From sequence record MZ291552.2: a stretch of DNA of 64,000 nucleotides; one strand, 5' to 3'. Each line of letters opens with the position of its first letter. The stretch's first letter is position 1. A program made the translations under genes and the position numbers. This stretch comes from Escherichia phage vB_EcoM-UFV09. Shown here piece after piece: positions 44,853 through 63,061 of the stretch. The notes beneath the pieces are model-generated. The model was given only the letters and a program-made list of their open reading frames with translations. It did not search any database and was not told the origin of the DNA.

Positions 44853-47800
44853 ATGGCCGAGATTAAAAGAAAGTTCAGAGCAGAAGACGGTCTGGACGCA
44901 GGTGGTGATAAAATAATCAACGTAGCTTTAGCTGATCGTACCGTAGGAACTGACGGTGTTAACGTTGATTACTTAATTCAAGAAAACACAGTTCAACAAT
45001 ATGATCCAACTCGTGGATATTTAAAAGATTTTGTAATCATTTATGATAACCGCTTTTGGGCTGCTATAAATGATATTCCAAAACCAGCAGGAGCTTTTAA
45101 TAGCGTACGATGGAGAGCGTTACGTACTGATGCAAACTGGACAACTGTTTCGTCAGGACCTTATCAATTAAAATCAGGCGAATCGATTTCAGTTAACACT
45201 GCAGCGGGTAATGACATTACATTTACTTTGCCATCTTCTCCAATTGATGGTGATACTATCGTTCTCCAAGATATTGGAGGAAAACCTGGAGTTAACCAGG
45301 TTTTAATTACAGCTCCGGTACAAAGCATTGTAAACTTTAGAGGTCAACAAGTACGCTCAGTACTAATGACTCATCCAAAATCACAGATAGTTTTAATTTT
45401 TAGTAATCGTCTGTGGCAAATGTATGTTGCTGATTATAGCAGAGAAGCGGCAGTTGTAACGCCAGCGAGTCTTTATCAAGCGCAATCAAACGATTTTATC
45501 GTGCGTAGATTTACTTCTGCTTCAGCAATTAATATTAAACTTCCTAGATTTGCTAATCATGGGGATATTATTAATTTTGTTGATTTAGATAAATTAAATC
45601 CGTTATATCATACTATCGTTACTACATACGATGAAACGACTTCAGTACAAGAAGTTGGAACTCATTCCATTGAAGGCCGTACATCTATTGATGGTTTCTT
45701 AATGTTTGATGATAATGAGAAATTGTGGAGATTATTTGACGGTGATAGTAAAGCGCGTTTACGCATTATAACAACTAATTCAAACATTCGTCCAAATGAA
45801 GAAGTCATGGTATTTGGCGCGAATAATGGAACAACTCAAACGATTGAACTTCAGCTTCCAACTGATATTTCTATCGGTGATACTGTTAAGATTTCCATGA
45901 ATTACATGAGAAAAGGACAAACAGTTAAAATCAAAGCTGCCGGTGAAGATAAAATTGCTTCTTCAGTTCAATTGTTGCAATTTCCAAAACGTTCAGAATA
46001 CCCACCTGAAACTAAATGGGTGACTGTTCAAGAATTAGTTTTTAACGGCGAAACTAATTATGTTCCAGTTTTACAGCTTGCTTATATCGAAGATTCCGAT
46101 GGAAAATATTGGGTTGTACAGCAAAACGTTCCAACAGTTGAAAGAGTAGACTCTTTAAATAATTCTACTAGAGCAAGATTAGGTGTAATTGCATTAGCTA
46201 CACAGGCTCAAGCTAATGCAGATTTAGAAAATTCTCCACAAAAAGAATTGGCAATTACTCCAGAAACGTTAGCTAATCGTACTGCTACAGAAACTCGTAG
46301 AGGTATTGCAAGAATAGCAACAACTGCGCAAGTAAACCAGGATACCACATTCTCTTTTGCAGATGACCTTATCATCACTCCTAAAAAGTTGAATGAAAGA
46401 ACTGCTACAGAAACTCGCAGAGGTGTCGCAGAAATTGCTACGCAGCAGGAAACTAATACAGGTACTGATGATACTACAATCATTACTCCTAAAAAGCTTC
46501 AAGCTCGCCAAGGTTCTGAATCATTATCTGGTATTGTAACTTTTGTATCTACTGCAGGAGCTACTCCAGCTTCTAGCCGCGAATTAAATGGTACGAATGT
46601 TTATAATAAAAACACTAATAACTTAGTTGTTTCACCTAAAGCCTTGGATCAGTATAAAGCTACTCCAACACAGCAAGGTGCGGTAATTTTAGCAGTTGAA
46701 AGTGAAGTAATTGCTGGACAAAGTCAAGAAGGATGGGCAAATGCGGTTGTAACGCCAGAAACGTTACATAAAAAGACATCAACTGATGGAAGAATTGGTT
46801 TAATTGAAATTGCTACTCAAAGTGAAGTTAATACAGGAACTGATTATACTCGTGCAGTCACTCCTAAAACTTTAAATGACCGTAGAGCAACTGAAAGTTT
46901 AAGTGGTATAGCTGAAATTGCTACACAAGTTGAATTCGACGCAGGCGTCGACGATACTCGTATCTCTACACCATTAAAAATTAAAACTAGATTTAATAGT
47001 ACTGATCGTACTTCAATTGCTACACAAGTTGAATTCGACGCAGGCGTCGACGATACTCGTATCTCTACACCATTAAAAATTAAAACTAGATTTAATAGTA
47101 CTGATCGTACTTCTGTTGTTGCTCTATCTGGATTAGTTGAATCAGGAACTCTCTGGGACCATTATACCCTTAATATTCTTGAAGCAAATGAGACACAACG
47201 TGGTACACTTCGTGTGGCTACACAAGTTGAAGCTGCTGCCGGAAAATTAGATAATGTTTTAATAACTCCTAAAAAGCTTTTAGGTACTAAATCTACCGAA
47301 TCGCAAGAAGGTGTTATTAAAGTTGCAACTCAGTCTGAAACTGTGGCTGGAACGTCAGTAAACACTGCTGTATCTCCAAAAAATTTAAAATGGATTGTAC
47401 AGAGTGAACCTACCTGGGCAGCTACTACTGCGATAAGAGGTTTTGTTAAAACTTCATCTGGTTCAATTACATTTGTCGGTAATGATACAGTCGGTTCTAC
47501 CCAAGATTTAGAACTGTATGAGAAAAATAGCTATGCAGTATCACCATATGAATTAAACCGTGTATTAGCAAATTATTTGCCATTAAAAGCAAAAGCTGCA
47601 GATAGTAATTTATTGGATGGTCTAGATTCATCTCAGTTCATTCGTAGGGACATTGCGCAGACGGTTAATGGTTCACTAACCTTAACCCAACAAACGAATC
47701 TGAGTGCCCCTCTTGTATCATCTAGTACTGCTACGTTTGGTGGATCAGTTTCAGCAAATAGTACATTAACTATTTCTAATACTGGAACAGCAACTCGATT

Positions 47801-48821
47801 GATTTTTGAGAAAGGACCTCAAACTGGAACAAACCCAGCCCAAACGATGACTGTTAGAGTGTGGGGAAATCAATTTAGTGGGGAATTAGATACAACACGT
47901 TCTACCGTATTTGAAGTTAGTGATGAAACATCTAGTCATTTTTATTCTCAGCGCAATAAAGCCGGAAATATAACATTTAATATCAACGGTACAGTAACAC
48001 CGATAAATGTTAATGCTTCAGGAACATTGAATGCAAATGGCGTAGCAACATTTGGTAATTCAGTCACTGCAACTGGTGAAATTATTTCTCGAAGCGCAAA
48101 TGCTTTCCGTGCTATTAACGGAAATTATGGTTTCATTGTTCGCAATGATGGATCAGTAACGAATTTTATGCTTACTGCATCGGGTGATCAGACTGGTGGA
48201 TTTAACGGATTACGTCCTTTGGCTATTAATAATGCATCTGGTCAAGTAACGATTGGTGAAAGCTTAATCATCGCCAAAGGTGCTACTATAAATTCTGGTG
48301 GTTTAACTGTTAATTCGAGAATTCGTTCTCAAGGTACTAAAACTTCTGATTTATATACCCGTGCGCCAACATCTGATACTGTAGGATTCTGGTCAATTGA
48401 TATTAATGATTCAGCTACTTATAACCAGTTCCCCGGTTATTTTAAAATGGTTGAAAAAACTAATGAAGTGACTGGACTTCCGTACTTAGAACGTGGCGAA
48501 GAAGTTAAATCTCCTGGTACACTGACACAGTTTGGTAACACACTTGATTCGCTTTACCAAGATTGGATTACTTATCCAACGACACCAGAAGCGCGTACCA
48601 CTCGTTGGACCCGCACATGGCAGAAAACCAAAAATTCTTGGTCAAGTTTTGTTCAGGTATTTGATGGAGGTAACCCTCCTCAACCGTCTGATATCGGTGC
48701 TTTACCATCTGATAATGCTACAATGGGGAATCTTACTATTCGTGATTTCTTACGAATTGGTAATGTTCGCATTATTCCTGACCCAGTGAATAAAACTGTT
48801 AAATTTGAATGGGTTGAATAA
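44853..48821 (+). CDS. 34: Long tail fibre proximal subunit gp34 (1322 aa) with an internal 33-aa tandem duplication
   Basis: Large repeat-rich ORF at the T4 gene 34 position; contains the 99-bp perfect tandem repeat at 46916..47113. Confidence 0.95.
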   Translation: MAEIKRKFRAEDGLDAGGDKIINVALADRTVGTDGVNVDYLIQENTVQQYDPTRGYLKDFVIIYDNRFWAAINDIPKPAGAFNSVRWRALRTDANWTTVSSGPYQLKSGESISVNTAAGNDITFTLPSSPIDGDTIVLQDIGGKPGVNQVLITAPVQSIVNFRGQQVRSVLMTHPKSQIVLIFSNRLWQMYVADYSREAAVVTPASLYQAQSNDFIVRRFTSASAINIKLPRFANHGDIINFVDLDKLNPLYHTIVTTYDETTSVQEVGTHSIEGRTSIDGFLMFDDNEKLWRLFDGDSKARLRIITTNSNIRPNEEVMVFGANNGTTQTIELQLPTDISIGDTVKISMNYMRKGQTVKIKAAGEDKIASSVQLLQFPKRSEYPPETKWVTVQELVFNGETNYVPVLQLAYIEDSDGKYWVVQQNVPTVERVDSLNNSTRARLGVIALATQAQANADLENSPQKELAITPETLANRTATETRRGIARIATTAQVNQDTTFSFADDLIITPKKLNERTATETRRGVAEIATQQETNTGTDDTTIITPKKLQARQGSESLSGIVTFVSTAGATPASSRELNGTNVYNKNTNNLVVSPKALDQYKATPTQQGAVILAVESEVIAGQSQEGWANAVVTPETLHKKTSTDGRIGLIEIATQSEVNTGTDYTRAVTPKTLNDRRATESLSGIAEIATQVEFDAGVDDTRISTPLKIKTRFNSTDRTSIATQVEFDAGVDDTRISTPLKIKTRFNSTDRTSVVALSGLVESGTLWDHYTLNILEANETQRGTLRVATQVEAAAGKLDNVLITPKKLLGTKSTESQEGVIKVATQSETVAGTSVNTAVSPKNLKWIVQSEPTWAATTAIRGFVKTSSGSITFVGNDTVGSTQDLELYEKNSYAVSPYELNRVLANYLPLKAKAADSNLLDGLDSSQFIRRDIAQTVNGSLTLTQQTNLSAPLVSSSTATFGGSVSANSTLTISNTGTATRLIFEKGPQTGTNPAQTMTVRVWGNQFSGELDTTRSTVFEVSDETSSHFYSQRNKAGNITFNINGTVTPINVNASGTLNANGVATFGNSVTATGEIISRSANAFRAINGNYGFIVRNDGSVTNFMLTASGDQTGGFNGLRPLAINNASGQVTIGESLIIAKGATINSGGLTVNSRIRSQGTKTSDLYTRAPTSDTVGFWSIDINDSATYNQFPGYFKMVEKTNEVTGLPYLERGEEVKSPGTLTQFGNTLDSLYQDWITYPTTPEARTTRWTRTWQKTKNSWSSFVQVFDGGNPPQPSDIGALPSDNATMGNLTIRDFLRIGNVRIIPDPVNKTVKFEWVE
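46916..47113 (+). repeat. Perfect 99-bp direct tandem duplication (2 copies), in frame, inside gene 34
   Basis: 46916..47014 is identical to 47015..47113; encodes IATQVEFDAGVDDTRISTPLKIKTRFNSTDRTS twice. Confidence 0.95.
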
Positions 48822-48829
48822 GAGGTATT

Positions 48830-49945
48830 ATGGAAAAATTTATGGCAGAGTTTGGACAAGGATATGTCCAAACGCCATTTTTATCGGAAAGCAATTCAGT
48901 AAGATATAAAATAAGCATAGCGGGTTCTTGCCCGCTTTCTACAGCAGGATCATACGTTAAATTTCAGGATAATCCTGTAGGAAGTCAAACATTTAGTGCA
49001 GGTCTTCATTTAAGAGTTTTTGACCCTTCCACGGGAGCATTGGTTGATAGTAAGTCATATGTTTTTTCTACTTCAAATGATACAACATCTGCTGCTTTTG
49101 TTAGTTTCATGAATTCTTTTTCAAGCAATAGACTTGTTGCCATATTAACTAGCGGAAAGGTTAATTTTCCTCCTGAAGTAGTATCTTGGTTAAGAACGGC
49201 AGGAACATCTGCTTTTCCATCTGATTCTTTATTGTCAAGATTTGATGTATCATATGCTGCCTTTTACACTTCTTCTAAAAGAGCTATCGCACTAGAGCAT
49301 GTTAAACTGAGTAACAGAAAAAGCACAGATGACTATCAAACTATATTAGATGTAGTATTTGACAGTTTAGAAGATGTTGGAGCGACAGGATTTCCTAAAA
49401 GAACATATGAAAGCGTTGAGCAATTTATGTCAGCTGTTGGTGGAACTAATAACGAAATTGCACGTCTACCTACAGCATCTGCAATAAGTAAACTTTCTGA
49501 CTATAATTTAATTCCTGGAGATGTTCTTTATCTTAAAGCACAACTATATGCTGATGCTGATTTACTTGCTCTTGGAACTACAAATATATCTATCCGTTTT
49601 TATAATGCGTCGAATGGATATATTTCCTCGACACAAGCTGAGTTTACCGGACAAGCTGGGTCTTGGGAATTAAAGGAAGATTATGTAGTTGTTCCTGAAA
49701 ATGCAGTTGGATTTACGATATATGCACAGAGAACTGCTCAAGCGGGACAAGGCGGTATGCGAAATTTAAGCTTTTCTGAAGTATCAAGAAACGGCGGTAT
49801 TTCAAAACCTGCTGAATTTGGCGTCAATGGTATTCGTGTTAATTATATCTGTGAATCTGCTTCACCTCCGGATATAATGGTACTTCCTACGCAAGCATCG
49901 TCTAAAACTGGTAAAGTGTTTGGACAGGAATTTAGAGAAGTTTAA
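48830..49945 (+). CDS. 35: Long tail fibre hinge protein gp35
   Basis: 371-aa ORF at the T4 gene 35 position. Confidence 0.9.
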   Translation: MEKFMAEFGQGYVQTPFLSESNSVRYKISIAGSCPLSTAGSYVKFQDNPVGSQTFSAGLHLRVFDPSTGALVDSKSYVFSTSNDTTSAAFVSFMNSFSSNRLVAILTSGKVNFPPEVVSWLRTAGTSAFPSDSLLSRFDVSYAAFYTSSKRAIALEHVKLSNRKSTDDYQTILDVVFDSLEDVGATGFPKRTYESVEQFMSAVGGTNNEIARLPTASAISKLSDYNLIPGDVLYLKAQLYADADLLALGTTNISIRFYNASNGYISSTQAEFTGQAGSWELKEDYVVVPENAVGFTIYAQRTAQAGQGGMRNLSFSEVSRNGGISKPAEFGVNGIRVNYICESASPPDIMVLPTQASSKTGKVFGQEFREV

Positions 49946-49950
49946 ATTGA

Positions 49951-49975
49951 GGGAGCCTTCGGGTTCCCTTTTTCT
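49951..49975 (+). terminator. Hairpin (UUCG tetraloop) plus T-tract downstream of gene 35
   Basis: gggagcc-ttcg-ggttccc followed by tttttc. Confidence 0.55.
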
Positions 49976-49976
49976 T

Positions 49977-49984
49977 TATAAATA
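49977..49984 (+). promoter_or_regulatory. Late promoter for genes 36-37-38
   Basis: Exact TATAAATA about 24 nt upstream of the gene 36 ATG. Confidence 0.6.
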
Positions 49985-50007
49985 CTATTAAAATAAAGGG
50001 GCATACA

Positions 50008-50664
50008 ATGGCTGATTTAAAAGTAGGTTCAACAACCGGAGGCTCTGTCATTTGGCATCAAGGAAATTTTCCATTGAATCCAGCCGGTGACGATGTACTC
50101 TATAAATCATTTAAAATATATTCAGAATATAATAAACCACAAGCAACTGATAACGATTTCGTTTCTAAAGCTAATGGTGGTACTTATTTAAATAAAGTAA
50201 TTTTTAATAAAGGAATGACTGTTCCTGGTGCTGGGTCAGGTGACAACGGTATTTTTGCCGGTCCTGGTGATAATGCCACATATGATACTACAAATATGGA
50301 TATTGTTTCATGGTATGGTATCGGCTTTAAATCATCACAAGGAGCAGCAGGTAGAACTGTAGTAATTAACACACGAAACGGAGATATTAGCTCAAAGGGT
50401 GTAATTGAAGCATCACAAATACGCGCAACTTCGTTATCACCAGTAAATAATTATGACCTTACGAGAAAAGATTATGTTGATGGAGCAATAAATATTGTTA
50501 CAACAAATGCAAACTCTAGAGTATTACGCTCTGGAGACACTATGACAGGAAATTTAACTGCGCCAAACCTTTTTTCACAGAATCCTGCATCTCAACCCTC
50601 GCATGTTCCGCGATTTGACCAAATCGTAATTAAGGATTCTGTTCAAGATTTCGGCTATTATTAA
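50008..50664 (+). CDS. 36: Long tail fibre distal connector gp36
   Basis: 218-aa ORF at the T4 gene 36 position. Confidence 0.9.
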   Translation: MADLKVGSTTGGSVIWHQGNFPLNPAGDDVLYKSFKIYSEYNKPQATDNDFVSKANGGTYLNKVIFNKGMTVPGAGSGDNGIFAGPGDNATYDTTNMDIVSWYGIGFKSSQGAAGRTVVINTRNGDISSKGVIEASQIRATSLSPVNNYDLTRKDYVDGAINIVTTNANSRVLRSGDTMTGNLTAPNLFSQNPASQPSHVPRFDQIVIKDSVQDFGYY

Positions 50665-50672
50665 GAGGACTT

Positions 50673-53600
50673 ATGGCTACTTTAAAACAAATACAATTTA
50701 AAAGAAGCAAAACGGCAGGTCAACGTCCAGCTGCTTCAGTATTAGCCGAAGGTGAATTGGCTATAAACTTAAAAGACCGTGTACTTTTTACTAAAGATGA
50801 CCAGGGAAATATTATTGATTTAGGTTTTGCTAAAGGCGGTAGTATTGACGGGAATGTTATTCATAAAGGCAATTATAACCAAACTGGAGATTATACTTTA
50901 AACGGTACATTCACCCAGACTGGTAATTTTAATTTAACCGGTATTGCTCGAGTAACTCGTGATATTATTGCTGCTGGGCAGATTATGACTGAAGGCGGAG
51001 AACTTATTACAAAAAGTTCAGGTACATCACATGTTCGTTTTCATGATTCAGCTGACCGTGAACGCGGTATTATTTTTTCTCCTGCTAATGATGGATTAAC
51101 TACACAAGTAATTAACATCAGAGTTCAAGATTACAAAGCCGGTTCAGAAAATACTTTTTCTTTTAGCGGTAGTGGTCTTTTCACATCGCCGGAAGTTTCT
51201 GCATGGAAATCTATGTCAACCCCCCAGATTTTGACTAACAAAGTCATTACTAATAATAAATCTACGAGTGATTATGACATTTATTCGATGGCAGACAATG
51301 TTCCATTGTCTGAAAGCACTACTGCTATTAATCATCTTCGTGTTATGCGTAATGCAGTTGGTTCTGGTATTTTTCATGAAGTTAAAGATAATGATGGAAT
51401 AACATGGTATAGTGGAGATGGATTAGATGCTTATCTGTGGTCATTTACCTGGAGCGGCGGAATTAAATCAAGTCACTCAATTTCCATCGGTTTAACACCC
51501 GGACCTAAGGATTACTCAATATTAGGACCGTCTAGTATCGCTTTAGGAGATAATGATACTGGATTTAAATGGCATCAAGACGGATATTATTTCAGTGTTA
51601 ACAATGGCACAAAAACGTTTTTATTTAGTCCCAGCGAAACAACTAGCCTAAGAAAATTTGTAGCTGGATATTCTACTAACGGAACCGATTTAACTACTCC
51701 TCCAACTGAAAATTATGCTCTTGCTACTGTAGTGACATACCACGATAATAACGCGTTTGAAGATGGTCAGACTCTTTTAGGATATTATCAAGGCGGTAAT
51801 TATCATCACTATTTCCGCGGTAAAGGTACTACAAACATTAATACTCACGGTGGTTTGTTAGTTACTCCTGGTAATATTGACGTTATTGGTGGTTCTGTTA
51901 ATATCGATGGTAGAAATAATGCTTCTACACTGATGTTTAGAGGTAACACAACTGGTAGTAGTTCAGTTGATAATATGACAATTTCCGTTTGGGGCAATAC
52001 GTTTACTAATCCTAGTGTAGGTAATCGTAAAAACGTCATGGAAATTTCTGATGCAACTAGTTGGATGAGCTATATTCAAAGACTTACAACAGGTGAAGTA
52101 GAAATGAACGTTAACGGTTCATTTGAATCATCTGGTGTTACTGCTGGAAATAGAGGAGTTCACACAACAGGCGAAATTTCATCTGGAGCAGTGAATGCGC
52201 TTCGTATTTGGAACGCAGATTATGGAGCCATTTTTAGACGTTCAGAAGGTAGTCTTCATATTATTCCGACTGCTTATGGTGAAGGCAAAAATGGTGATAT
52301 CGGTCCACTTCGTCCATTTAGTATTGCTTTGGATACTGGTAAGGTTGTTATTCCAGATTTAGAATCAAGTTATAACACGTTTGCTGCAAATGGCTACATT
52401 AAATTTGCTGGTCATGGCGCGGGTGCAGGTGGTTATGATATTCAGTATTCACAAGCTGCTCCTATTTTCCAAGAAATCGATGATGCTGCTGTAAGCAAAT
52501 ATTATCCTATTGTTAAACAGAAGTTTTTAAATGGTAAAGCTGTCTGGTCTTTGGGTACTGAAATTAATTCTGGTACATTTGTTTTACATCATTTGAAAGA
52601 AGATGGTTCACAAGGCCATACATCAAGATTTAATGCTGATGGTACAGTCAATTTCCCCGATAACGTTCAAGTCGGTGGTGGTGAAGCTACTATTGCTCGT
52701 AATGGTAATATTTTCTCAGATATTTGGAAATCGTTTACTTCTGCGGGAGAAACCACAAATATTCGCGATGCAATAGCTACTCGTGTTGCCAAAGAAGGCG
52801 ATACGATGACTGGCAAATTAATCGTTAAAAGAGGCTCTGACGCTATTAACATTGCTGCCGATGAAAATGATTCTTGCTATTTACTTGGAACATCGGGTGG
52901 AGCGAATTCATGGTACATTGGTAAAGGAGGAGCAGATGACACTGCTTCATTTTATAATTTCAAAACTACCGCAGGAATTACTCTTAATAGTGTTGGTGAT
53001 ATTGATTTTAACGTTAAAAATCAAGCTACTGCAGCTTCATTAAATTTTTATCGTTTATATTTAAATGGAAGACAGTGGACAGCTACACAAGGACATGGAT
53101 ATAATAATCAATGGCAAACAGAAGCCCCATTCTTCGTTGACTTTGGCGAATCTGTTCCGAAAGATAGTTATATGCCTATAATTAAAGGAAGAAGCCAAAT
53201 CATTAACGAAGGATATGCCACAAAGGCAGATTTTGGTATTATTCGATTAGGCGGAAATGCTACTTGGGGAAATGCAGTAATTCGTGTTGGTTCTGCAGAA
53301 AGCGGAGATAGCAGTCATCCTAATGCAATATTTGTGTTTCAGGCTAATGGCGATTTTAAAGCTCCGGCTGGCCTTCGTGCTGGTGTTAACTTGGGCGTCG
53401 GCACAATTCCAGTATGGGGCGGAGCATCTATCGCCATCGGTGATGATGATACCGGTTTAGTTCATGGCGGCGATGGTCGAATTAATATGTATGCTAACGC
53501 GCAGCATATTGCATCATGGGGCACGATGTATCAATCTCATCCAGGCCTTTGGGATTCATATGGAGCTTTTTGGACAGAAGTTGGCAAAGCAATTATTTCT

Positions 53601-53999
53601 CATGGCCATTTAGTTCAGGCGAATGACAGTTATTCCACATATGTACGCGATGTTTATGTCCGCTCTGATATTCGTGTCAAAAAGGACCTAGTTAAATTTG
53701 AAAATGCTTCTGAGAAGCTTTCAAAAATTAACGGTTACACTTATATGCAGAAGCGAGGTCTAGATGAAGAAGGTAATCAAAAATGGGAACCTAACGCAGG
53801 TTTAATTGCTCAAGAAGTTCAAGCTATTTTACCTGAATTAGTTGAAGGCGATCAGGATGGTGAAGCACTACTTCGTTTGAACTACAACGGTGTAATCGGT
53901 TTAAATACAGCTGCAATCAATGAGCATACTGCAGAAATTGCAGAACTTAAGTCAGAGATTGAAGAGCTTAAAAAATTAGTCAAATCATTGTTAAAATAA
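50673..53999 (+). CDS. 37: Long tail fibre distal subunit gp37 with C-terminal intramolecular-chaperone-like domain (T2-type)
   Basis: 1108-aa ORF; C-terminal about 110 aa (SDIRVKKDL...coiled-coil tail) resembles the autoproteolytic chaperone domains of phage fibres and tailspikes. Confidence 0.9.
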
Positions 54000-54003
54000 A
54001 ATG

Positions 54004-54019
54004 AGGGGCTTCGGCCCCT
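54004..54019 (+). other. Stable RNA hairpin (UUCG tetraloop) between genes 37 and 38
   Basis: aggggc-ttcg-gcccct immediately followed by GGAGG Shine-Dalgarno and the gene 38 ATG. Confidence 0.5.
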
Positions 54020-54030
54020 TGGAGGTTTAT

Positions 54031-54825
54031 ATGGCAGTTGAAGGACCGTGGGTAGGATGGTCTGCGAGGGTACAAACTGGAGACCCTTGGATGGGTGGTG
54101 CCGCGCAGAGATTGAGAATGGGAATTCCGTTTTGGATGAGTAATATGATAGGTCGATCTGTTGAAGTAATTCACACACTTGGAGCGGACCATAACTTCAA
54201 TGGTCAATGGTTCCGAGATAGATGTTTTGAGGCAGGTAGTGCACCTATAGTGTTTAATATTACCGGAAATTTGGTATCATATTCTAGAGACGTTCCTTTA
54301 TTCTTTATGTATGGAGATACACCTAATGAATATGTTCAGTTGAATATTGGTGGCGGCGTCCATATGTGGGGTAGAGGTGGACAAGGTGGATGGACTCATT
54401 CCGGCGGAGATGGTAATGGTCAACAAGGTGGTCATTGTATTCAAAATGACATCGGTGGACGATTAAGAATTAATAACGGTGGAGTAATTTGCGGTGGAGG
54501 TGGAGGTGGAGGTGGTATCGCTTATCGTCCTCGCTCTGGCGCAAAATGGCAAGATATTGGTGGTGGCGGTGGAAGACCATTTGGCCCAGGAGGTGGCGGC
54601 GGTTACTCGGGTGGCGCAGCTTCATACGACGGTCCAGGAGGTGGTTATCAATACGGAAATGCTCACTCCGGCCAGGGTGGCGATGCCGGAGGAAATGGAC
54701 AAAATGCCTGGTCGGATGGCGGTAAAGTTCTAAAAGTTGGAGCTGGTGGCGCTGCCGGATATGCTGTTATAGGATCCGCTCCAACATGGCAAAATGTTGG
54801 AGTAATATATGGTCCAAGGGTATAA
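54031..54825 (+). CDS. 38: gp38 receptor-binding adhesin (T2-type, glycine-rich motifs)
   Basis: 264-aa product from ATG with GGAGG Shine-Dalgarno; conserved N-terminal region then poly-Gly blocks separated by variable segments; track ORF starts at 54001 inside the hairpin. Confidence 0.85.
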
Positions 54826-54855
54826 TTTGAATAAATATCCTTAAAAGGAGGGTCT

Positions 54856-55512
54856 ATGGCAGCACCTAGAATATCATTTTCGCCCTCTGATATTCTATTT
54901 GGTGTTCTAGATCGCTTGTTCAAAGATAACGCTACCGGGAAAGTTCTTGCTTCCCGGGTAGCTGTCGTAATTCTTTTATTTATGATGGCGATTGTTTGGT
55001 ATAGGGGAGATAGTTTCTTTGAGTACTATAAGCAATCAAAGTATGAAACATACAGTGAAATTATTGAAAAGGAAAGAAATGCACGCTTTGAATCTGTCGC
55101 CCTGGAACAACTCCAGATAGTTCACATATCATCTGAGGCAGACTTTAGTGCGGTGTATTCTTTCCGCCCTAAAAACTTAAACTATTTTGTCGATATTATA
55201 GCATATGAAGGAAAATTACCTTCAACAATAAGTGAAAAATCACTTGGAGGATATCCTGTTGATAAAACTATGGATGAATATGCAGTTCATTTAAATGGAC
55301 GTCATTATTATTCCAACTCAAAATTTGCTTTTTTACCAACTAAAAAGCCTACTCCCGAAATAAACTACATGTACAGTTGTCCATATTTTAATTTGGATAA
55401 TATCTATGCTGGAACGATAACCATGTACTGGTATAGAAATGATCATATAAGTAATGACCGCCTTGAATCAATATGCGCCCAGGCGGCCAGAATATTAGGA
55501 AGGGCTAAATAA
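54856..55512 (+). CDS. t: Holin T
   Basis: 218-aa ORF with one N-terminal transmembrane segment and large periplasmic domain. Confidence 0.93.
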   Translation: MAAPRISFSPSDILFGVLDRLFKDNATGKVLASRVAVVILLFMMAIVWYRGDSFFEYYKQSKYETYSEIIEKERNARFESVALEQLQIVHISSEADFSAVYSFRPKNLNYFVDIIAYEGKLPSTISEKSLGGYPVDKTMDEYAVHLNGRHYYSNSKFAFLPTKKPTPEINYMYSCPYFNLDNIYAGTITMYWYRNDHISNDRLESICAQAARILGRAK

Positions 55513-55785
55513 TTATTTGTTCGTATACATCTCTAGATATCGATATACACCCTCAAAACCCTCGTTGAATTCGTCGATGAGGGTTTTCTTATCTTCTTGA
55601 GTTAATTCAGAAACAATTTTACGGAATGAATTCTGATTTAATTTTCTACCTTCATGTGTTACTCCAATCTCATTCAGAAATGCAATAAAATTAGCACGAT
55701 TTTCAACAATATCTTCTCTGGAAAATTTAATCAAAATAGACGCAACAGTAATAATTTCACGAACTGTATCAATATTTTTATTCAT
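55513..55785 (-). CDS. asiA: AsiA anti-sigma-70 factor
   Basis: 90-aa ORF recognised as T4 AsiA. Confidence 0.95.
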   Translation of the reverse strand: MNKNIDTVREIITVASILIKFSREDIVENRANFIAFLNEIGVTHEGRKLNQNSFRKIVSELTQEDKKTLIDEFNEGFEGVYRYLEMYTNK

Positions 55786-55797
55786 TAACTATACCAC

Positions 55798-55950
55798 TCA
55801 ATTAGTTGACTTTGTTATAATATCATCAGACGCTTGATTTGTAAACTGGTCTGTGTTATTTTCTTCAAAAATTTTTTCTACGAATTCCTTGAACGACTTA
55901 CGTTCCTGAGCTACATTATGCTCGATTACTTTTTCAAGATTATGACTCAT
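55798..55950 (-). CDS. asiA.5: Small protein asiA.5 (50 aa); contains the asiA early promoter in its coding sequence
   Basis: Hand-translated ORF below the track threshold; ATG overlaps the arn stop (ATGA); GTTTAC-N18-TATTAT at about 55811..55850. Confidence 0.5.
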   Translation of the reverse strand: MSHNLEKVIEHNVAQERKSFKEFVEKIFEENNTDQFTNQASDDIITKSTN

Positions 55951-56225
55951 TCGAAATAATCTTCAATTTCATAATCATGGACGTAAATCATTATAGTTTT
56001 TAATACATCATCAATACTTTTTCCTGGAGCTGGAATTACGTAGAAATATCCTGCTTTTGAGAGGTCTTTATAAGTTCCAATCAGGAAATCATTATTCTCG
56101 AGATGTAGTTCTTCAACTAATTCATTAACAATTGAGTGGTATAAATTTGGTAGAAACTTATGTAGCTTTTCTAGAATATCAATTTTGATTGTGTATTGAA
56201 CCACAGACTGAGAATCAATAATCAT
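55947..56225 (-). CDS. arn: Arn, anti-restriction protein (McrBC inhibitor)
   Basis: 92-aa acidic ORF at the T4 arn position. Confidence 0.75.
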   Translation of the reverse strand: MIIDSQSVVQYTIKIDILEKLHKFLPNLYHSIVNELVEELHLENNDFLIGTYKDLSKAGYFYVIPAPGKSIDDVLKTIMIYVHDYEIEDYFE

Positions 56226-56308
56226 AGACCTTCCCCTTATGTTTCTGTTTACGATTAGAATCTTTAAACGCTTTCTTCTTATCTTTATGAACAGAAGCTT
56301 TATTAAAA

Positions 56309-56527
56309 TTATGTTTTGCGACTAAATTGTTCATAGTGCTGAATTACCTCTCTTAAACATTTGCATGTGAATGAGAACTTTTTAGCTACACCACATTCAA
56401 ATATATGTTCTCTTAAATCACGTGTATCAGTATATCCCATCTCAACAATAAAATGCCTTATTAGATTTTTATCTTTATCATTGAGAGAATTAAAATAATC
56501 AGATTTTGAATTAATTTCCCTGGCCAA
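56309..56527 (-). CDS. Hypothetical protein (72 aa)
   Basis: ORF in the arn-motA interval. Confidence 0.6.
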   Translation of the reverse strand: MAREINSKSDYFNSLNDKDKNLIRHFIVEMGYTDTRDLREHIFECGVAKKFSFTCKCLREVIQHYEQFSRKT

Positions 56528-56806
56528 ATTGAATCACCTTCAGTTGACGTTTTAATTCTTTTATCATTTCTTCGTTCATCGCAATATAAAGATCGCGTAA
56601 AGCAGGTTTTAGCATTCCATTTACCGGAGAACTAAATGGGCATACATAATCTTTTCCTACAAGCTTTTTGGTAAATTCCATATCACAAAATTTAAATGCT
56701 GGCTCATTCGCATAAATCCCCAATTAGTTGACATCATTTTATTGGCATATTCCAGTGCCTGAATTTGATTCATAATTCCATCAATTTGAAACTTTTTAAT
56801 ATTCAT
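56511..56806 (-). pseudogene. Probable frameshift-split gene: N-terminal ORF 56657..56806 and C-terminal ORF 56511..56723 overlap at a G4 run
   Basis: Upstream ORF has an ATG coupled to the preceding stop (TAATG); downstream ORF has no ATG or Shine-Dalgarno; one extra G at plus 56718..56721 would fuse them into about 98 aa. Confidence 0.4.
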
Positions 56807-57267
56807 TAGTAAAGGTCCTCAGAGTAAAGTTCTTTTTCACTACCACCACGTTCAATACGTACTTGTCCAGCGTAAGTTGCAATAATCATTGCTTCTTCGC
56901 GTGTCCAATAATTACTGTATTGGTCAATAAACCCTTGGTCATCATCACAAACTTGTTGAGTAACTAATTGAGGTTTAACTACATCTAAAACTTCTGCCAT
57001 ATCTTTAGAATAATGACGAGCACCTGGAATAACGAGAGTTCGTCCATCTTTTAATTTAAAACGGTTGGCTGCACAGACAATTCGTCGTTGATACTTTTGG
57101 TTTTCATCCCAATACGCAGTCTGCCAACATATTTCAGGAACTTCATCTAAAACATTTTGTTCTGTATATTCACCGCCGTAAGAAGCTAATTTAGCAGCCA
57201 GACTTTCCGGAGTCTCACGTAACAAAGCTTTATCTAACAGAGCTAAACGTTCTTTAAAAGTTTTCAT
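56806..57267 (-). CDS. Hypothetical protein (153 aa)
   Basis: ORF in the arn-motA interval. Confidence 0.65.
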
Positions 57268-57593
57268 TTAAACCATCCTTTAATACGTTGCCACAAAGTT
57301 TTCTGTTGAGCTTTGTTAACACCAATTGAGCGAATAACCGGTTGAGATTCCTGGAATTCTTTATAATCAGCAAGATAAATTTCGTAAGCTGCATCTGTAA
57401 AGGAACTTATCGCTGCCATAAAATTATTACGAATACCTACTGGAGCATCTTTACTTTCACGAATAATCATGTATTTACCAGTCTTAATCTTTACGATAGT
57501 TCCAAGATAAGCTCCATGATACCAGATGTCCCAACCCTCTTGAGTAGGTTCTGCACAACGACGAAGTTCATTGACAATTTCTAACTTGTTCAT
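57264..57593 (-). CDS. Hypothetical protein (109 aa) immediately downstream of motA
   Basis: ORF overlapping the next gene by 4 nt. Confidence 0.65.
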
Positions 57594-57603
57594 TATTTAT
57601 TCC

Positions 57604-58239
57604 TCACAGTTCAGATGCTACAGTTATTACTGCTTCAATGTTTTCTGCTGAGCGTTTAATGTCAAGATACACATTACCGTTTTTAGCGATTTTACATGAC
57701 ATTCCGATGTCAGTAAATTTCTGAATATGATGTTCCATCATTTTGTATCCAAAAATTCGCATGTTTCCATTATTGTTAATTTCAAAATTGCGAATTCCGT
57801 GAGTGCGTTTTTCTAAAATAGCAAGATAGTTACTGCGGTAAGTTTCAACCTTTTTAAGAACAAATCCATTTTCATCTAAAAGTTTTAACATGAGGTCTTT
57901 ATCTTCTTCCATATCGGAAGTAATTTCGCGAGCTTTACGAGTTGCTCGTTTTTTCAGCAGTTCGGGAGCATTTTCCTGTGCATATAAAGTTGCTGCATTT
58001 GAAATAATATCCTGAGCTTCACCAGTAATGATTAATCCATCACCAGATTTCTCTACCAGGCCTTTTTTAATCAATACCCCAATATTATTATTAACTACTG
58101 CGTTACCTAAATCTGGATGCACCTCACGAACTTCTGCAGCTGTAATGAAATCTTTCTTAGCAATGGTAATTAAAATCGCAGCAGTTTTTTCATTCAGAAC
58201 ATCGTTAGAAGCTTTGATGATGTAAGTTACTTTAGACAT
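57604..58239 (-). CDS. motA: MotA middle-transcription activator
   Basis: 211-aa ORF recognised as T4 MotA. Confidence 0.95.
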   Translation of the reverse strand: MSKVTYIIKASNDVLNEKTAAILITIAKKDFITAAEVREVHPDLGNAVVNNNIGVLIKKGLVEKSGDGLIITGEAQDIISNAATLYAQENAPELLKKRATRKAREITSDMEEDKDLMLKLLDENGFVLKKVETYRSNYLAILEKRTHGIRNFEINNNGNMRIFGYKMMEHHIQKFTDIGMSCKIAKNGNVYLDIKRSAENIEAVITVASEL

Positions 58240-58274
58240 TTTCTAATCTCCGTAATTCTGTATCAGCAGTTGAT

Positions 58275-58312
58275 AGTTGTATAGTACCACAGTATGCTTT
58301 GGTTGTAAACCG
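58275..58312 (-). promoter_or_regulatory. Early promoter for motA
   Basis: Minus strand GTTTACAA, 18 nt, TACTAT, with A/T-rich upstream element. Confidence 0.55.
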
Positions 58313-58320
58313 TTTTGTGA

Positions 58321-58360
58321 AAAAAATTAAAATAAAAAAGGGAGAGCCTTCGGCTCTCCC
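58321..58360 (-). terminator. Intrinsic terminator downstream of gene 52
   Basis: gggagagcc-ttcg-ggctctccc hairpin followed on the minus strand by a U-rich tract. Confidence 0.6.
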
Positions 58361-58370
58361 TAAAAAATTA

Positions 58371-58517
58371 CTACATGACTGTGATAACTGTCATGATAAC
58401 ACGTTGAATTCCGAACGCAAGAAGACCTCCTGCTACGGCTGGAACAACACCTAAACCCGCCAGTAAAATGCTACCGGATACTAATGCAGCGCTTGTAATA
58501 CCAATGAATGGACTCAT
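58371..58517 (-). CDS. Small hydrophobic membrane protein (48 aa)
   Basis: Hand-translated; ATG overlaps the gene 52 stop (ATGA). Confidence 0.45.
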   Translation of the reverse strand: MSPFIGITSAALVSGSILLAGLGVVPAVAGGLLAFGIQRVIMTVITVM

Positions 58518-59842
58518 TTGATTTCCTCTAAATCTTTAGTGTATTCTGTAACTACATCAGTAGTTTTCCAATATTCGTTTTCTTCTTTTTTAGCTTTAGC
58601 TTCTTCAGCAAGTTTCTTTGCTTCGTCGGAAGTCATATGAAAAATATTCATTCCGACTAGTTTATCAACATAAGAAGAATACATCTCAATTTTAGAAAGT
58701 TCTTCAGTCAGTTCTTTGCGAGTTTTACCCTGTACAACGATTTCACCTGAAATTACTTTCTTAATGAAATGTGCCTTGGCAAAAGCTAAACGAAAAGCTG
58801 ACTCAGTTTCTTTAATTTTATTATCAATTCGTTTTTGGACATAAGTTTTACGAACTTCAACGAAGTCTTTGATTAAATCAACTACGTTATCGTAAACTTG
58901 TAGTTTTCCTTTCTCATTAATAACCGTAATATTCTGAGAACGACGCTCAATCAACCCGAAGTCTTTCATAATTTTTGCATGGCGTTCTTCTTCATTATCG
59001 CTCAAAGAATATTCTTTACGGAATTTAACTTTAAAGCCAAACCCGTGCTCACCACAAGCATCATCCCATGTAATGAAGCCTTTATCTTCAAGCGGGTCTA
59101 AGATTTTACTCACATAAGTTTCACGATCATACTTATACGGAATCTCAGTGATATGCATTTGAGTTCGTGAAGTAAACTTATATGTTCCACGAATTTCATA
59201 TTGACCGTCAATTTCAACGACTTCACCGCGAAATTCTGGGAATTCTACCTTTGGTTTAGTTACTTTCTTTCCTTGAAGAGCTTGCAATACAGCTTTCTTG
59301 ACAGAAGAAACACTATGAGGAAGAATGTAAGTTGCATAACCAGTTGCAATACCGGAAACACCATTAAGAAGAACAGTAGGAATAATAGGCAAATAGAAAG
59401 CAGGCGGAATGTGTTCTTTATCTTGATGTACCGGAGCATATTCAGTATCTTTATATACGCTATAGAAATTTTTACTTACACGAGCAAAAATATAACGACT
59501 TGCCGCTGCTTTTTGAACGGTACGAGAACCAAAGTTTCCTTGACCATCTAACAAAGGAAAGTTATTATTCCAAGTATTAGCCATCAAAGCCCCCGCGTCT
59601 TGCGCAGAGTTTTCACCATGATGATATCCAAGGTCCGCTACACCACCTGCAATAGAAGCGAGTTTGTGAAACTTATCTTTATTTCCTCGTGCCAAATCAA
59701 GAGCTCGAGCAATAACAAATCGTTGGACTGGCTTAAATCCATCAATCATATTTGGAATAGCACGATTTTCAACCGTGTACATAGCATAAGCCAATGCTTC
59801 ATTATCAATGATACTTTTTAAATCGCGATTATTCAGTTGCAT
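58514..59842 (-). CDS. 52: DNA topoisomerase II medium subunit gp52
   Basis: 442-aa ORF at the T4 gene 52 position. Confidence 0.93.
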   Translation of the reverse strand: MQLNNRDLKSIIDNEALAYAMYTVENRAIPNMIDGFKPVQRFVIARALDLARGNKDKFHKLASIAGGVADLGYHHGENSAQDAGALMANTWNNNFPLLDGQGNFGSRTVQKAAASRYIFARVSKNFYSVYKDTEYAPVHQDKEHIPPAFYLPIIPTVLLNGVSGIATGYATYILPHSVSSVKKAVLQALQGKKVTKPKVEFPEFRGEVVEIDGQYEIRGTYKFTSRTQMHITEIPYKYDRETYVSKILDPLEDKGFITWDDACGEHGFGFKVKFRKEYSLSDNEEERHAKIMKDFGLIERRSQNITVINEKGKLQVYDNVVDLIKDFVEVRKTYVQKRIDNKIKETESAFRLAFAKAHFIKKVISGEIVVQGKTRKELTEELSKIEMYSSYVDKLVGMNIFHMTSDEAKKLAEEAKAKKEENEYWKTTDVVTEYTKDLEEIK

Positions 59843-59846
59843 AAAT

Positions 59847-59987
59847 TTACCATACTAGTGAATGTAGTGCCATAATAACATCAGAAATGAAAAGCACGAC
59901 TTGAATTAATCCGAACATTACTCCATAATATAGTGCTACTAATAAAGTAGCAAGGGCTAATGAATAGCCCAAGATTTTCTTAATCAT
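59847..59987 (-). CDS. Small hydrophobic membrane protein (46 aa)
   Basis: Hand-translated; no clear Shine-Dalgarno; ATG lies 3 nt upstream of the ac stop. Confidence 0.4.
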   Translation of the reverse strand: MIKKILGYSLALATLLVALYYGVMFGLIQVVLFISDVIMALHSLVW

Positions 59988-60138
59988 TAGTAGATAACAA
60001 CACAAATGTTAAATATGCACACATACCCTGAGCTAAAGCTTGCGAAAACACACTGCTGGCATCAATACAGATAGTTAAAACACATGCTACTATCCAACAA
60101 ATAAATGAAATAACTCCTAATAATTTTGCAATATTCAT
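59980..60138 (-). CDS. ac: Small membrane protein (52 aa), probable Ac (acridine sensitivity)
   Basis: Hand-translated; GAGGAAAAT Shine-Dalgarno; size and position match what I recall of T4 ac. Confidence 0.5.
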   Translation of the reverse strand: MNIAKLLGVISFICWIVACVLTICIDASSVFSQALAQGMCAYLTFVLLSTND

Positions 60139-60148
60139 ATTTTCCTCA

Positions 60149-60226
60149 CTAGCGTCCGAAGACGCCTTTAGTTTTAAGATTATTACGATAGAACTGCATC
60201 ACATGTTCGTTATGGAAATTACTCAT
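60149..60226 (-). CDS. stp: Stp peptide (25 codons), activator of the host PrrC anticodon nuclease
   Basis: Hand-translated [25 protein letters not shown]-stop; ATG overlaps the ndd stop (TAATG). Confidence 0.65.
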
Positions 60227-60684
60227 TAATATGCCTGCAAAACAAATTTAAAGTTATCAGCCAACATACGGTTCATTTCTTCAAGTGTTTGATACTCAGA
60301 ATGATGATTACGAGTAAACGCTAAAGCTAACTGTCCTTTTCCAAATCCCGTCGTCAGAGGTTTCATCTTAGAAGCAGGCAGATAAAATACTGTGTATGGA
60401 ACATTGTTATTTGCAATAGTACGCGCAAGCTGAGACCGGCGTTGACGAATATGACTTAAAACTGCGCTGAATCCTTGCTTAGAACGCTGATTACCTACAT
60501 AAAATCGTGCAGACACACATGGATTACTAAATAGACGACCATCTAATTTACTCACTAAAAAGTAAAATCCAGGTTTAGATAAAAAGTCTTTATGTGGAAC
60601 TCCCAAAAACCATTCACCGTTCTTGATTGTACCAATAACGGTAGCGCCTGCATTATTCAGATCAGTAACAGTCATATATTTCAT
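60226..60684 (-). CDS. ndd: Ndd nucleoid disruption protein
   Basis: Internal ATG (MKYMTVTDL...) with GAGGAAAT Shine-Dalgarno; track ORF extends to 60732. Confidence 0.85.
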
Positions 60685-60744
60685 ATTAATTTCCTCTAAA
60701 TTATTTTCTACTCCAAGGCCGCATGAATACATACGGCCGATAAA

Positions 60745-60960
60745 TTAATCGTCGCAGTCGACGCTCAATTCCCAAAACTCTTCTACAGTATAAGTTTCAG
60801 TATCATTTTCAATACAGAAACGTTCATTACTGTTATTTGCTAAAGTAGCATTAACTGTCGGTTTCTCGCTAGTGCTCTTAAGAGGTGAAATACGAATTAA
60901 CTGATCACCGTTATCTAAACAGAAAATTTCACCAACTTTTACATCTTTAAAACTTTTCAT
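60745..60960 (-). CDS. Hypothetical protein (71 aa)
   Basis: ORF upstream of ndd. Confidence 0.6.
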   Translation of the reverse strand: MKSFKDVKVGEIFCLDNGDQLIRISPLKSTSEKPTVNATLANNSNERFCIENDTETYTVEEFWELSVDCDD

Positions 60961-60968
60961 AATTCACC

Positions 60969-61079
60969 TCAAGGAGTATAAAATCCGAATGCAGTTGTTG
61001 ACCATCCCATCCAATATGGGAAATTTGCGCCAATGTAAAACATAAGAATATAAAACCAACCGCTCAGCAAATTCATCAT
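60969..61079 (-). CDS. Small hydrophobic membrane protein (36 aa)
   Basis: Hand-translated; ATG overlaps the upstream gene stop (ATGA). Confidence 0.4.
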   Translation of the reverse strand: MMNLLSGWFYILMFYIGANFPYWMGWSTTAFGFYTP

Positions 61080-61273
61080 TTTACACCATTCCAAATTGTT
61101 TCAACCACGGATTTTAAACCATTTTGATGAATGTCCATTCCGACAACTGCCATCAAATAGATTCCAACTACAACTGAACCCAAGGCGAAAATCAGCATGA
61201 AAATGAATAAAGCCGGAAAAATATTATCGAAAAACCATTCAATAAATGTAAAAGCACTGCGTTTACGCTTCAT
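61076..61273 (-). CDS. Small membrane protein (65 aa)
   Basis: Internal ATG with GAGGAAAAT Shine-Dalgarno; track ORF extends to 61294. Confidence 0.55.
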   Translation of the reverse strand: MKRKRSAFTFIEWFFDNIFPALFIFMLIFALGSVVVGIYLMAVVGMDIHQNGLKSVVETIWNGVK

Positions 61274-61280
61274 ATTTTCC

Positions 61281-61394
61281 TCACATAAATCCAAAGTAAA
61301 CGTTTAATACATCAATCATTAAAACGATTGGGAATATACTCAAAACTATTAGTATTATAACTACATTCCATATAGCTTTAATAATCTTTTTCAT
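61281..61394 (-). CDS. Small membrane protein (37 aa)
   Basis: ATG with GGAGGA Shine-Dalgarno downstream of an early promoter; track ORF 61281..61529 runs through the promoter. Confidence 0.5.
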   Translation of the reverse strand: MKKIIKAIWNVVIILIVLSIFPIVLMIDVLNVYFGFM

Positions 61395-61414
61395 TTTCTG
61401 TTCCTCCGTAGTTG

Positions 61415-61455
61415 ATAGGGTAATAGTACCACGGAAGAACAGTCTTGTAAACAAC
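61415..61455 (-). promoter_or_regulatory. Early promoter
   Basis: Minus strand GTTTACAA, 18 nt, TACTAT. Confidence 0.5.
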
Positions 61456-61637
61456 TTTTTTAAAAATATTCGTAATAAATGTGAATACCAACTACTACCG
61501 CTGAAACCTGTGCAACCCACCACGCGCAAGCAATAAGTACAGAATTCAAAATTTTCATAATAACCTCATTACAAAAGTAAATGTTAAACAAATTACTGGA
61601 ATACTAATTAACCAAATAAAACACCACCATAATGAAC

Positions 61638-61910
61638 TCATAGCTCAATCTCAGCGATTTTCATTTCATTACTATTAATAGCCGCTTTAAGACTATCTGA
61701 AAGAATTACATTCCAGTGGTCATTCATATGACCATTAATTAAGCGTGTAATTTCTTCTGGAGTTGAAAAATAAGGCGTATCAGACTCCCAATGCGATAGT
61801 CCCAAGCGAGTATAAATCATACCTTCATCATCGCTAGAATATTCAACTGACACAAACTCATCAGTTATTTTATGTTTAGCGTAATAAAATTTAAATTTCA
61901 TTTTACTCAA
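61638..61910 (-). CDS. Hypothetical protein (90 aa)
   Basis: ORF overlapping the upstream gene by 4 nt. Confidence 0.65.
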   Translation of the reverse strand: MSKMKFKFYYAKHKITDEFVSVEYSSDDEGMIYTRLGLSHWESDTPYFSTPEEITRLINGHMNDHWNVILSDSLKAAINSNEMKIAEIEL

Positions 61911-62125
61911 TAATCCGCTAAAAGATCGACGATTGCATCACGAAGACACTTATTCGCAATACGTTTAAGAGCAATTTCAGTTTCTGGAGCATTTTGAATA
62001 ATCATCGAATTCAACTCAGCCTCAGCAAACTGAAGTTCTTTAACTAGTTCAGCTTTATATTTCCCTTGCCCTTTCTTAGCCTTTGCCCGTTTTAATTCAG
62101 CTGTAGTAAACATTTTATTCTCCAA
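61907..62125 (-). CDS. Hypothetical protein (72 aa)
   Basis: ORF downstream of an early promoter. Confidence 0.65.
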   Translation of the reverse strand: MENKMFTTAELKRAKAKKGQGKYKAELVKELQFAEAELNSMIIQNAPETEIALKRIANKCLRDAIVDLLADY

Positions 62126-62139
62126 ATCCGTATCAGTTG

Positions 62140-62180: not shown

Positions 62181-62194
62181 TTTATGAAATTTTT

Positions 62195-63033: not shown

Positions 63034-63061
63034 AATTTTCCTTAGTTAAGGGCCGAAGCCC

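What the first reader, a model, noticed from the sequence alone, without database searches (positions are those of the whole stretch)
46916..47113. Perfect 99-bp in-frame tandem duplication inside proximal tail fibre gene 34
46916..47014 and 47015..47113 are identical base for base, adding exactly 33 residues to gp34 (1322 aa here versus the 1289 aa I recall for T4). Other repeats in gp34 are diverged, so perfect identity points to a very recent slippage or unequal-crossover event, or an assembly artefact. Insertion of one repeat unit would lengthen the proximal half-fibre.
Basis: seen in the sequence. Interest (0 to 1): 0.6.

Follow-up and report, generated by a model that had tools for sequence, protein, structure and literature searches.

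The report
Assembly artefact duplicated in gene 34
The perfect 99-base repeat in the tail-fibre gene is almost certainly the untrimmed overlap of a circular assembly left inside the deposited genome, not a longer fibre, because three near-identical sister genomes each carry the same kind of 99-base repeat at a different place.

Summary
Window 46916-47014 and 47015-47113 are identical, in frame, inside a 1322-aa gp34.

The biological reading fails. The window is Escherichia phage vB_EcoM-UFV09. Apart from the extra 99 bp, all 64,000 bases match sister record vB_EcoM-UFV10 with no mismatch or other gap. UFV10 has one copy in gene 34 but carries its own perfect 99-bp tandem duplication in a ribosyltransferase gene. 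UFV11 has one in a small ORF and UFV06 has one in a baseplate wedge gene. Each is private to its record.

Record lengths are 165,859, 165,859, 165,859 and 165,858, that is, a 165,760-bp circle plus 99. The sister records start at or just before the rIIA stop codon, so they were re-opened after assembly. This fits a de Bruijn assembly with final k = 99, whose circular contig repeats its first k bases at its end, rotated without trimming.

The junction occurs in no other public sequence searched, and other named gp34 proteins in its 371-member cluster are 1289-1290 aa. Because 99 is divisible by 3, the artefact never breaks a reading frame.

Verdict: not a real feature, low interest. It is useful only as a database correction affecting four records.

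The parts
44853..48821 (+). Gene 34 (long tail fibre proximal subunit) as deposited, 1322 aa. Removing one 99-bp copy gives 3870 nt / 1289 aa, identical to gene 34 of vB_EcoM-UFV10.
   Evidence: ORF list and translation. Exact protein is UXR08759.1, 'long tail fiber [Escherichia phage vB_EcoM-UFV09]'. Pfam Gp34_trimer and Gp34_2nd match. 94% identity to T4 gp34 with one 33-aa gap. The de-duplicated gene is found exactly in UFV10 at 146800.
46916..47014 (+). Copy 1 of the 99-bp unit, encoding residues 689-721 (IATQVEFDAGVDDTRISTPLKIKTRFNSTDRTS).
47015..47113 (+). Copy 2 of the 99-bp unit, identical to copy 1, encoding residues 722-754. One of the two copies is the inferred untrimmed contig-end overlap; which one cannot be told.
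47000..47029 (+). The novel junction (ACTGATCGTACTTC|AATTGCTACACAAGTT) created by the duplication. It is the inferred position of the original contig ends. There is no microhomology at the boundary.
   Evidence: The 30-mer has 0 hits in viral contigs, metagenome contigs and genome contigs. An 80-bp junction query against 50,697 phage records gives only split two-piece matches. Flanks are shown.

Best explanation
The duplication is an artefact of how the record was built, not a feature of the phage. T4-type genomes are circularly permuted and assemble as a circle. A de Bruijn graph assembler writes a circle as a linear contig whose last k bases repeat its first k bases. Here the final k was 99, and the contig of vB_EcoM-UFV09 happened to be broken inside gene 34. 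The contig was then rotated to the conventional T4 start next to rIIA without removing the overlap. The two ends were joined head to tail and left a perfect 99-bp tandem duplication at the old break point. Because 99 is a multiple of 3, the reading frame stays open and the annotation pipeline called a gp34 that is 33 residues too long. Shown here: the same-length private duplications in sister records, the equal record lengths, the re-opened starts of the sister records, and the absence of the junction elsewhere. Inferred: the assembler, the value k = 99, and the rotate-without-trim step.
For: (1) The window is identical to vB_EcoM-UFV10 (OP555981.1) 101948-165848 over all 64,000 bases, with 0 mismatches and no gap other than the extra 99 bp.
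(2) UFV10 has a single copy in gene 34. It carries its own perfect 99-bp x 2.0 tandem duplication at 11793-11991, in a ribosyltransferase CDS.
(3) UFV11 (OP555982.1) has one at 55601-55798, where the CDS is 273 nt against 174 nt in UFV10. UFV06 (OP555980.1) has one at 83384-83581, where the baseplate wedge CDS is 1104 nt against 1005 nt. Both are perfect and exactly 99 bp.
(4) Each duplication is private. A 25-kb UFV10 query spans 24,901 bases in UFV11 and UFV06 across UFV10's duplication, and 25,099 bases across the duplication of UFV11 or UFV06.
(5) Record lengths are UFV09 165,859, UFV10 165,859, UFV11 165,859 and UFV06 165,858, that is, 165,760 + 99.
(6) UFV10 and UFV06 begin exactly at the rIIA stop codon, and UFV11 and UFV05 begin 10-11 bases earlier. 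The records were therefore re-opened after assembly, and UFV10 has no overlap left at its ends.
(7) The junction is absent from the viral, metagenome and genome contig collections and from 50,697 phage records. The other full-length named members listed from the 371-member gp34 cluster are 1289-1290 aa.
(8) PMC8483715 documents the correct handling for a T4-like phage: a SPAdes contig with 55-bp overlapping ends was trimmed before re-opening at the T4 start.
Against: No raw reads or original contigs could be inspected, and the only paper found on UFV09 gives no assembly method. The assembler and k = 99 are therefore inferred. The start of the UFV09 record lies outside the window and was not seen. 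UFV05 (165,776 bp) has no 99-bp duplication, so not every record of the series shows the artefact. The duplicated unit roughly resembles one shaft repeat of gp34, so a real variant would not be absurd on its face.
Confidence: 0.95

Rival explanations
1. A genuine, very recent in-frame tandem duplication arose in the UFV09 stock by replication slippage or unequal recombination. It would add a 33-residue unit to the shaft of the proximal half-fibre.
For: The duplication is in frame and sits in the repetitive shaft region of gp34, where the motif repeats every 36-66 residues. It covers roughly one such motif. Tail fibre genes are known to evolve by repeat gain and loss (general knowledge). The window's hoc gene holds a genuine old 288-bp duplication.
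Against: Three sister records of the same phage have private perfect duplications of exactly the same 99-bp length in unrelated genes. Four independent biological events of identical length in otherwise identical genomes is not credible. Any 99-bp artefact is automatically in frame. There is no microhomology at the junction. The resulting 33-residue spacing is shorter than any native spacing, which are 36, 40, 49 and 66. The junction is found in no other public sequence. The record length is exactly circle + 99.
Confidence: 0.03
2. The duplication is another kind of artefact: a mis-resolved repeat loop in the assembly graph, a chimeric read, or a manual editing or joining error specific to this record. 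It would be unrelated to the contig-end overlap.
For: The duplication is perfect and private, which any artefact would explain. The gp34 shaft is internally repetitive at the protein level.
Against: The internal gp34 repeats are too diverged at the DNA level to form a graph loop. TRF finds no other repeat in the gene, and there is no shared sequence at the unit boundaries. This rival does not explain why the sister records show the same 99-bp length at unrelated, non-repetitive loci, or why every record is circle + 99.
Confidence: 0.02

Closest known systems
Untrimmed k-mer overlap at the ends of circular de Bruijn contigs (for example SPAdes), normally seen as a k-length direct terminal repeat
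   Same: The repeat is perfectly identical and its length is an odd number usable as an assembler k (99). One occurs per assembly, its position is arbitrary, and the record length is genome + k. For the T4-like phage 132, a 55-bp overlap was recognised and trimmed before re-opening (PMC8483715).
   Different: Here the overlap is not at the record ends. It lies inside a gene, because the contig was rotated to the rIIA start before the overlap was removed. It therefore looks like a biological tandem duplication and yields a plausible longer protein.
T4 gp34, long tail fibre proximal subunit (1289 aa; PDB 9x3r chain M full length; 5nxh, 5nxf and 4uxe C-terminal fragments)
   Same: The protein is 94% identical and colinear over its full length. 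The Gp34_trimer and Gp34_2nd domains are present, and the gene sits in the same place, between rnh and gene 35.
   Different: The deposited protein has 33 extra residues (722-754) that exactly repeat 689-721. No other member seen has them.
Genuine domain duplications in T4-type structural genes, for example the Ig-like domains of Hoc
   Same: These are also in-frame tandem repeats inside a virion protein gene. The window itself holds one: 288 bp x 2 at 4642-5217.
   Different: The genuine repeat is diverged (76% identity), is shared with the sister record and corresponds to a whole domain. The 99-bp repeat is perfect and private, and is shorter than the local structural repeat.

Membership tests
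Assembler end-overlap artefact (circular contig, overlap k, rotated without trimming) | The two copies are perfectly identical and directly adjacent | tested here: met
   99/99 bases identical, no spacer
Assembler end-overlap artefact (circular contig, overlap k, rotated without trimming) | The repeat length equals a k-mer size and is the same in independent assemblies from the same project | tested here: met
   The length is exactly 99 bp in UFV09, UFV10, UFV11 and UFV06. That 99 is an odd value commonly used as a k is my own knowledge; the k actually used is not documented.
Assembler end-overlap artefact (circular contig, overlap k, rotated without trimming) | The position is arbitrary and differs between assemblies of the same genome; each duplication is private | tested here: met
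   The sites are gene 34, a ribosyltransferase gene, a small ORF and a baseplate wedge gene. Sister records are single-copy at each site.
Assembler end-overlap artefact (circular contig, overlap k, rotated without trimming) | Record length = unique circle + k | tested here: met
   UFV10 is 165,859 - 99 = 165,760. UFV09 and UFV11 are 165,859 and UFV06 is 165,858.
Assembler end-overlap artefact (circular contig, overlap k, rotated without trimming) | The record was re-opened at a chosen start after assembly | tested here: inconclusive
   Met for the sister records: UFV10 and UFV06 start at the rIIA stop codon, and UFV11 and UFV05 start 10-11 bases upstream. The start of UFV09 itself is outside the window.
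Assembler end-overlap artefact (circular contig, overlap k, rotated without trimming) | No sequencing reads span the junction; the original contig ends lie at the repeat | not testable with these tools
   Reads and raw contigs are not available here.
Genuine tandem duplication (slippage / unequal crossover) | The junction is seen in independent sequence data | tested here: not met
   0 hits for the junction 30-mer in three collections. Only split matches in 50,697 phage records. No contig on record encodes the 1322-aa protein.
Genuine tandem duplication (slippage / unequal crossover) | Short homology at the duplication end points, or a length matching the repeat period that would template misalignment | tested here: not met
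   There is no microhomology at the boundaries. The unit is 33 aa, while native shaft repeat spacings are 36, 40, 49 and 66 aa.
T4 gp34 long tail fibre proximal subunit | Full-length colinear similarity to T4 gp34, C-terminal Gp34 domains, and a position upstream of genes 35-37 | tested here: met
   94% identity to a T4 gp34. PF21446 and PF21560 score above their cut-offs. PDB 9x3r_M is matched. The neighbours are ribonuclease H upstream and long tail fibre genes downstream.

The most novel reading that the evidence does not exclude
The duplication is real in the UFV09 stock: a spontaneous 33-residue extension of the gp34 shaft that arose during laboratory propagation. It would be a natural length variant of the proximal half-fibre, usable to test how fibre length affects adsorption and fibre retraction.
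Probability: 0.03. Interest if true: 0.4.

Novelty: not a real feature. Interest (0 to 1): 0.05.

Why it matters
There is no biological significance. The practical value is data hygiene. At least four GenBank Tequatrovirus records carry a spurious 99-bp insertion that adds 33 residues to an annotated protein without breaking the frame. These are vB_EcoM-UFV09, UFV10 (OP555981.1), UFV11 (OP555982.1) and UFV06 (OP555980.1). The affected proteins are gp34, a ribosyltransferase, a small ORF product and a baseplate wedge protein, and they have already entered protein databases (for example UXR08759.1). The case also gives a simple screening rule. A perfect tandem duplication whose length is a typical assembler k (55, 77, 99, 127), found in a circularly permuted genome, should be checked against sister assemblies before being read as biology.

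Tried and rejected
1. UFV10 terminal overlap. I first expected UFV10 to have a 99-bp overlap at its record ends. It has none. The prediction was revised to an internal duplication elsewhere in the record, and this was confirmed.
2. Junction searches. The junction 30-mer was searched in viral, metagenome and genome contig collections, with no hits.
3. Encoding contigs. A look-up of contigs encoding the exact 1322-aa protein, hoping for an independent Logan assembly of the reads, found nothing on record.
4. Assembly method. The only paper on UFV09 (PMC8468216) says the genome was sequenced but gives no method. The Phage Annotation Guide (PMC8785237) warns that terminal redundancies can end up inside a contig but does not describe the k-mer overlap specifically.
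5. Timed-out script. A first Python scan for perfect tandem repeats timed out and was replaced by TRF.
6. Planted edit. I considered that the duplication might have been inserted into the window rather than being in the public record. This is rejected because the 1322-aa protein is exactly NCBI UXR08759.1.
7. Structure prediction. I did not model the 33-residue insert, because the artefact evidence made it moot.

Full report
**Observation**

The repeat is exactly as described. Window 46916-47014 and 47015-47113 are identical. TRF reports period 99, 2.0 copies, 100% matches and no indels, and direct comparison agrees. The period-99 identity does not extend a single base beyond the two units.

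The repeat lies in ORF 44853..48821 (+), 1322 aa. It begins at the third base of codon 688. Residues 689-721 (IATQVEFDAGVDDTRISTPLKIKTRFNSTDRTS) are repeated as 722-754.

The protein is gp34:
- It has the Pfam Gp34_trimer and Gp34_2nd domains.
- It matches full-length T4 gp34 in PDB 9x3r and the C-terminal crystal fragments.
- It is 94% identical to a 1289-aa T4 gp34, with one 33-residue gap at this site.

**Where the window comes from**

The exact 1322-aa protein is NCBI UXR08759.1, 'long tail fiber [Escherichia phage vB_EcoM-UFV09]', on a contig of 165,859 bp. So the duplication is in the public record.

In the phage collection, the best matches are four sister isolates from the same Brazilian wastewater series: vB_EcoM-UFV05, 06, 10 and 11. 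All have a single copy in gene 34.

A BLAST of the whole window against UFV10 (OP555981.1) gives 100% identity with zero mismatches. Window 1-47014 and 47015-64000 together cover UFV10 101948-165848, and the only difference is the extra 99 bp. With one copy removed, gene 34 is found exactly in UFV10 as a 3870-nt, 1289-aa gene.

**The decisive clue**

UFV09 carries 99 extra bases, yet its record has the same length as UFV10 and UFV11 (165,859 bp). UFV10 must therefore carry 99 bases somewhere that UFV09 lacks.

I assembled the full UFV10 record from fetched pieces and ran TRF. UFV10 has its own perfect 99-bp x 2.0 tandem duplication at 11793-11991, inside a CDS annotated as ribosyltransferase at 11686-12387.

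I then used 25-kb pieces of UFV10 as queries. The sister records span 24,901 bases across UFV10's duplication, so it is private to UFV10. UFV11 spans 25,099 bases for UFV10 50,001-75,000. UFV06 spans 25,099 bases for UFV10 75,001-100,000. Fetching those stretches and running TRF located the insertions.

| Record | Position of the perfect 99-bp x 2.0 duplication | Gene affected |
|---|---|---|
| UFV09 (this window) | window 46916-47113 | gene 34, 1322 aa versus 1289 aa |
| UFV10 (OP555981.1) | 11793-11991 | ribosyltransferase CDS 11686-12387 |
| UFV11 (OP555982.1) | 55601-55798 | small CDS, 273 nt versus 174 nt in UFV10 |
| UFV06 (OP555980.1) | 83384-83581 | baseplate wedge CDS, 1104 nt versus 1005 nt in UFV10 |

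Four essentially identical genomes thus each carry one private, perfect tandem duplication of exactly 99 bp, in four unrelated places. Their lengths are 165,859, 165,859, 165,859 and 165,858 bp, that is, a 165,760-bp circle plus 99. UFV05 (165,776 bp) has no such duplication, only small indels.

**Mechanism**

A de Bruijn assembler writes a circular genome as a linear contig whose last k bases repeat its first k bases. This is my own knowledge of such assemblers. PMC8483715 documents it for a T4-like phage: a SPAdes contig had 55-bp overlapping ends, one of which was trimmed before the genome was re-opened at the T4 start.

The UFV records were clearly re-opened after assembly. UFV10 and UFV06 start at the rIIA stop codon, UFV11 and UFV05 start 10-11 bases before it, and UFV10 has no overlap left at its ends.

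Rotating a contig without first trimming the overlap joins the two ends head to tail. That leaves a perfect k-length tandem duplication at the old break point. The break point is arbitrary and differs between assemblies, which is the pattern seen here.

Because 99 = 3 x 33, the artefact always preserves the reading frame. The annotation pipeline therefore produced plausible proteins 33 residues too long, and nothing flagged them.

The assembler and k = 99 are inferred. The one paper that mentions UFV09 gives no method.

**The rival: a real duplication**

Points in favour:
- The duplication is in frame.
- It sits in the repetitive shaft, where a strand motif and a [TS]P..L motif recur.
- It covers about one such unit.

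Points against:
- Being in frame is automatic for a 99-bp unit.
- The native spacings are 40, 40, 36, 49, 40, 36, 66 and 36 residues. The duplication creates a 33-residue spacing, shorter than any of them.
- There is no microhomology at the end points.
- The junction 30-mer is absent from the viral, metagenome and genome contig collections.
- An 80-bp junction query against 50,697 phage records gives only split matches to the two ends of the single copy.
- The other full-length named members listed from the 371-member gp34 cluster are 1289 or 1290 aa.
- Above all, the same exact length recurs as a private event in three sister records. This has no biological explanation.

A different kind of artefact, such as a graph loop or an editing slip, would not explain the shared 99-bp length or the circle + 99 record lengths.

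**Comparison with known things and verdict**

The gene is an ordinary member of the T4 gp34 family. The duplication belongs to the class of untrimmed end overlaps of circular contigs, here hidden inside the record by rotation. It is not a real feature of the phage.

My confidence in this is 0.95. About 0.03 remains for a real laboratory-arisen variant. Read mapping or a single PCR across 46850-47200 would settle it: 252 bp for the artefact, 351 bp for a real duplication.

Interest is low. The useful outcome is that four public records and their derived protein entries need correction.

**Seen in passing**

- The window's hoc-like gene (4081-5499, minus strand) is one 473-codon frame interrupted by a single TAA at codon 63. 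It contains a genuine, diverged 288-bp tandem repeat.
- The distal fibre ORFs downstream of gene 34 are 1108 and 274 aa. These sizes differ from what I recall for T4.

Noticed in passing
OP555981.1 (UFV10) 11793-11991; OP555982.1 (UFV11) 55601-55798 (L009 5690-5887); OP555980.1 (UFV06) 83384-83581 (L010 8483-8680): Each sister record carries its own perfect 99-bp tandem duplication. They add 33 residues to a ribosyltransferase, a small hypothetical protein and a baseplate wedge protein respectively. They are the same artefact as in the window, and these records need correction too.
   Followed up: yes
window 4081-5499 (-), stop at 5311-5313: The hoc-like head decoration gene is a single 473-codon frame interrupted by one in-frame TAA at codon 63. 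It is annotated in the sister record as separate fragments. It could be a real nonsense mutation in a non-essential gene or a base-call error. The sequence is identical in UFV10.
   Followed up: partly
window 4642-5217: A diverged 288-bp x 2 tandem repeat (76% identity) lies inside the hoc-like gene. It corresponds to repeated ~96-residue units, which look like an extra Ig-like domain compared with the 376-aa T4 Hoc I recall. It is a genuine old duplication and a useful contrast to the perfect 99-bp one.
   Followed up: partly
window 50673-53999 and 54001-54825 (+): The ORFs in the positions of genes 37 and 38 are 1108 and 274 aa. From memory, T4 has 1026 and 183 aa. This suggests a T2/T6-type gp38 adhesin arrangement rather than the T4 type. 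I did not examine it further.
   Followed up: no
whole window versus OP555981.1 101948-165848: UFV09 and UFV10 differ at no base over 63,901 shared positions, and UFV06 and UFV11 are almost as close. The separately named isolates appear to be the same phage sequenced several times. UFV05 (OP572230.1) differs by small indels (+7, +9, +1) and has rIIA annotated in three pieces, which probably reflects sequence errors.
   Followed up: partly
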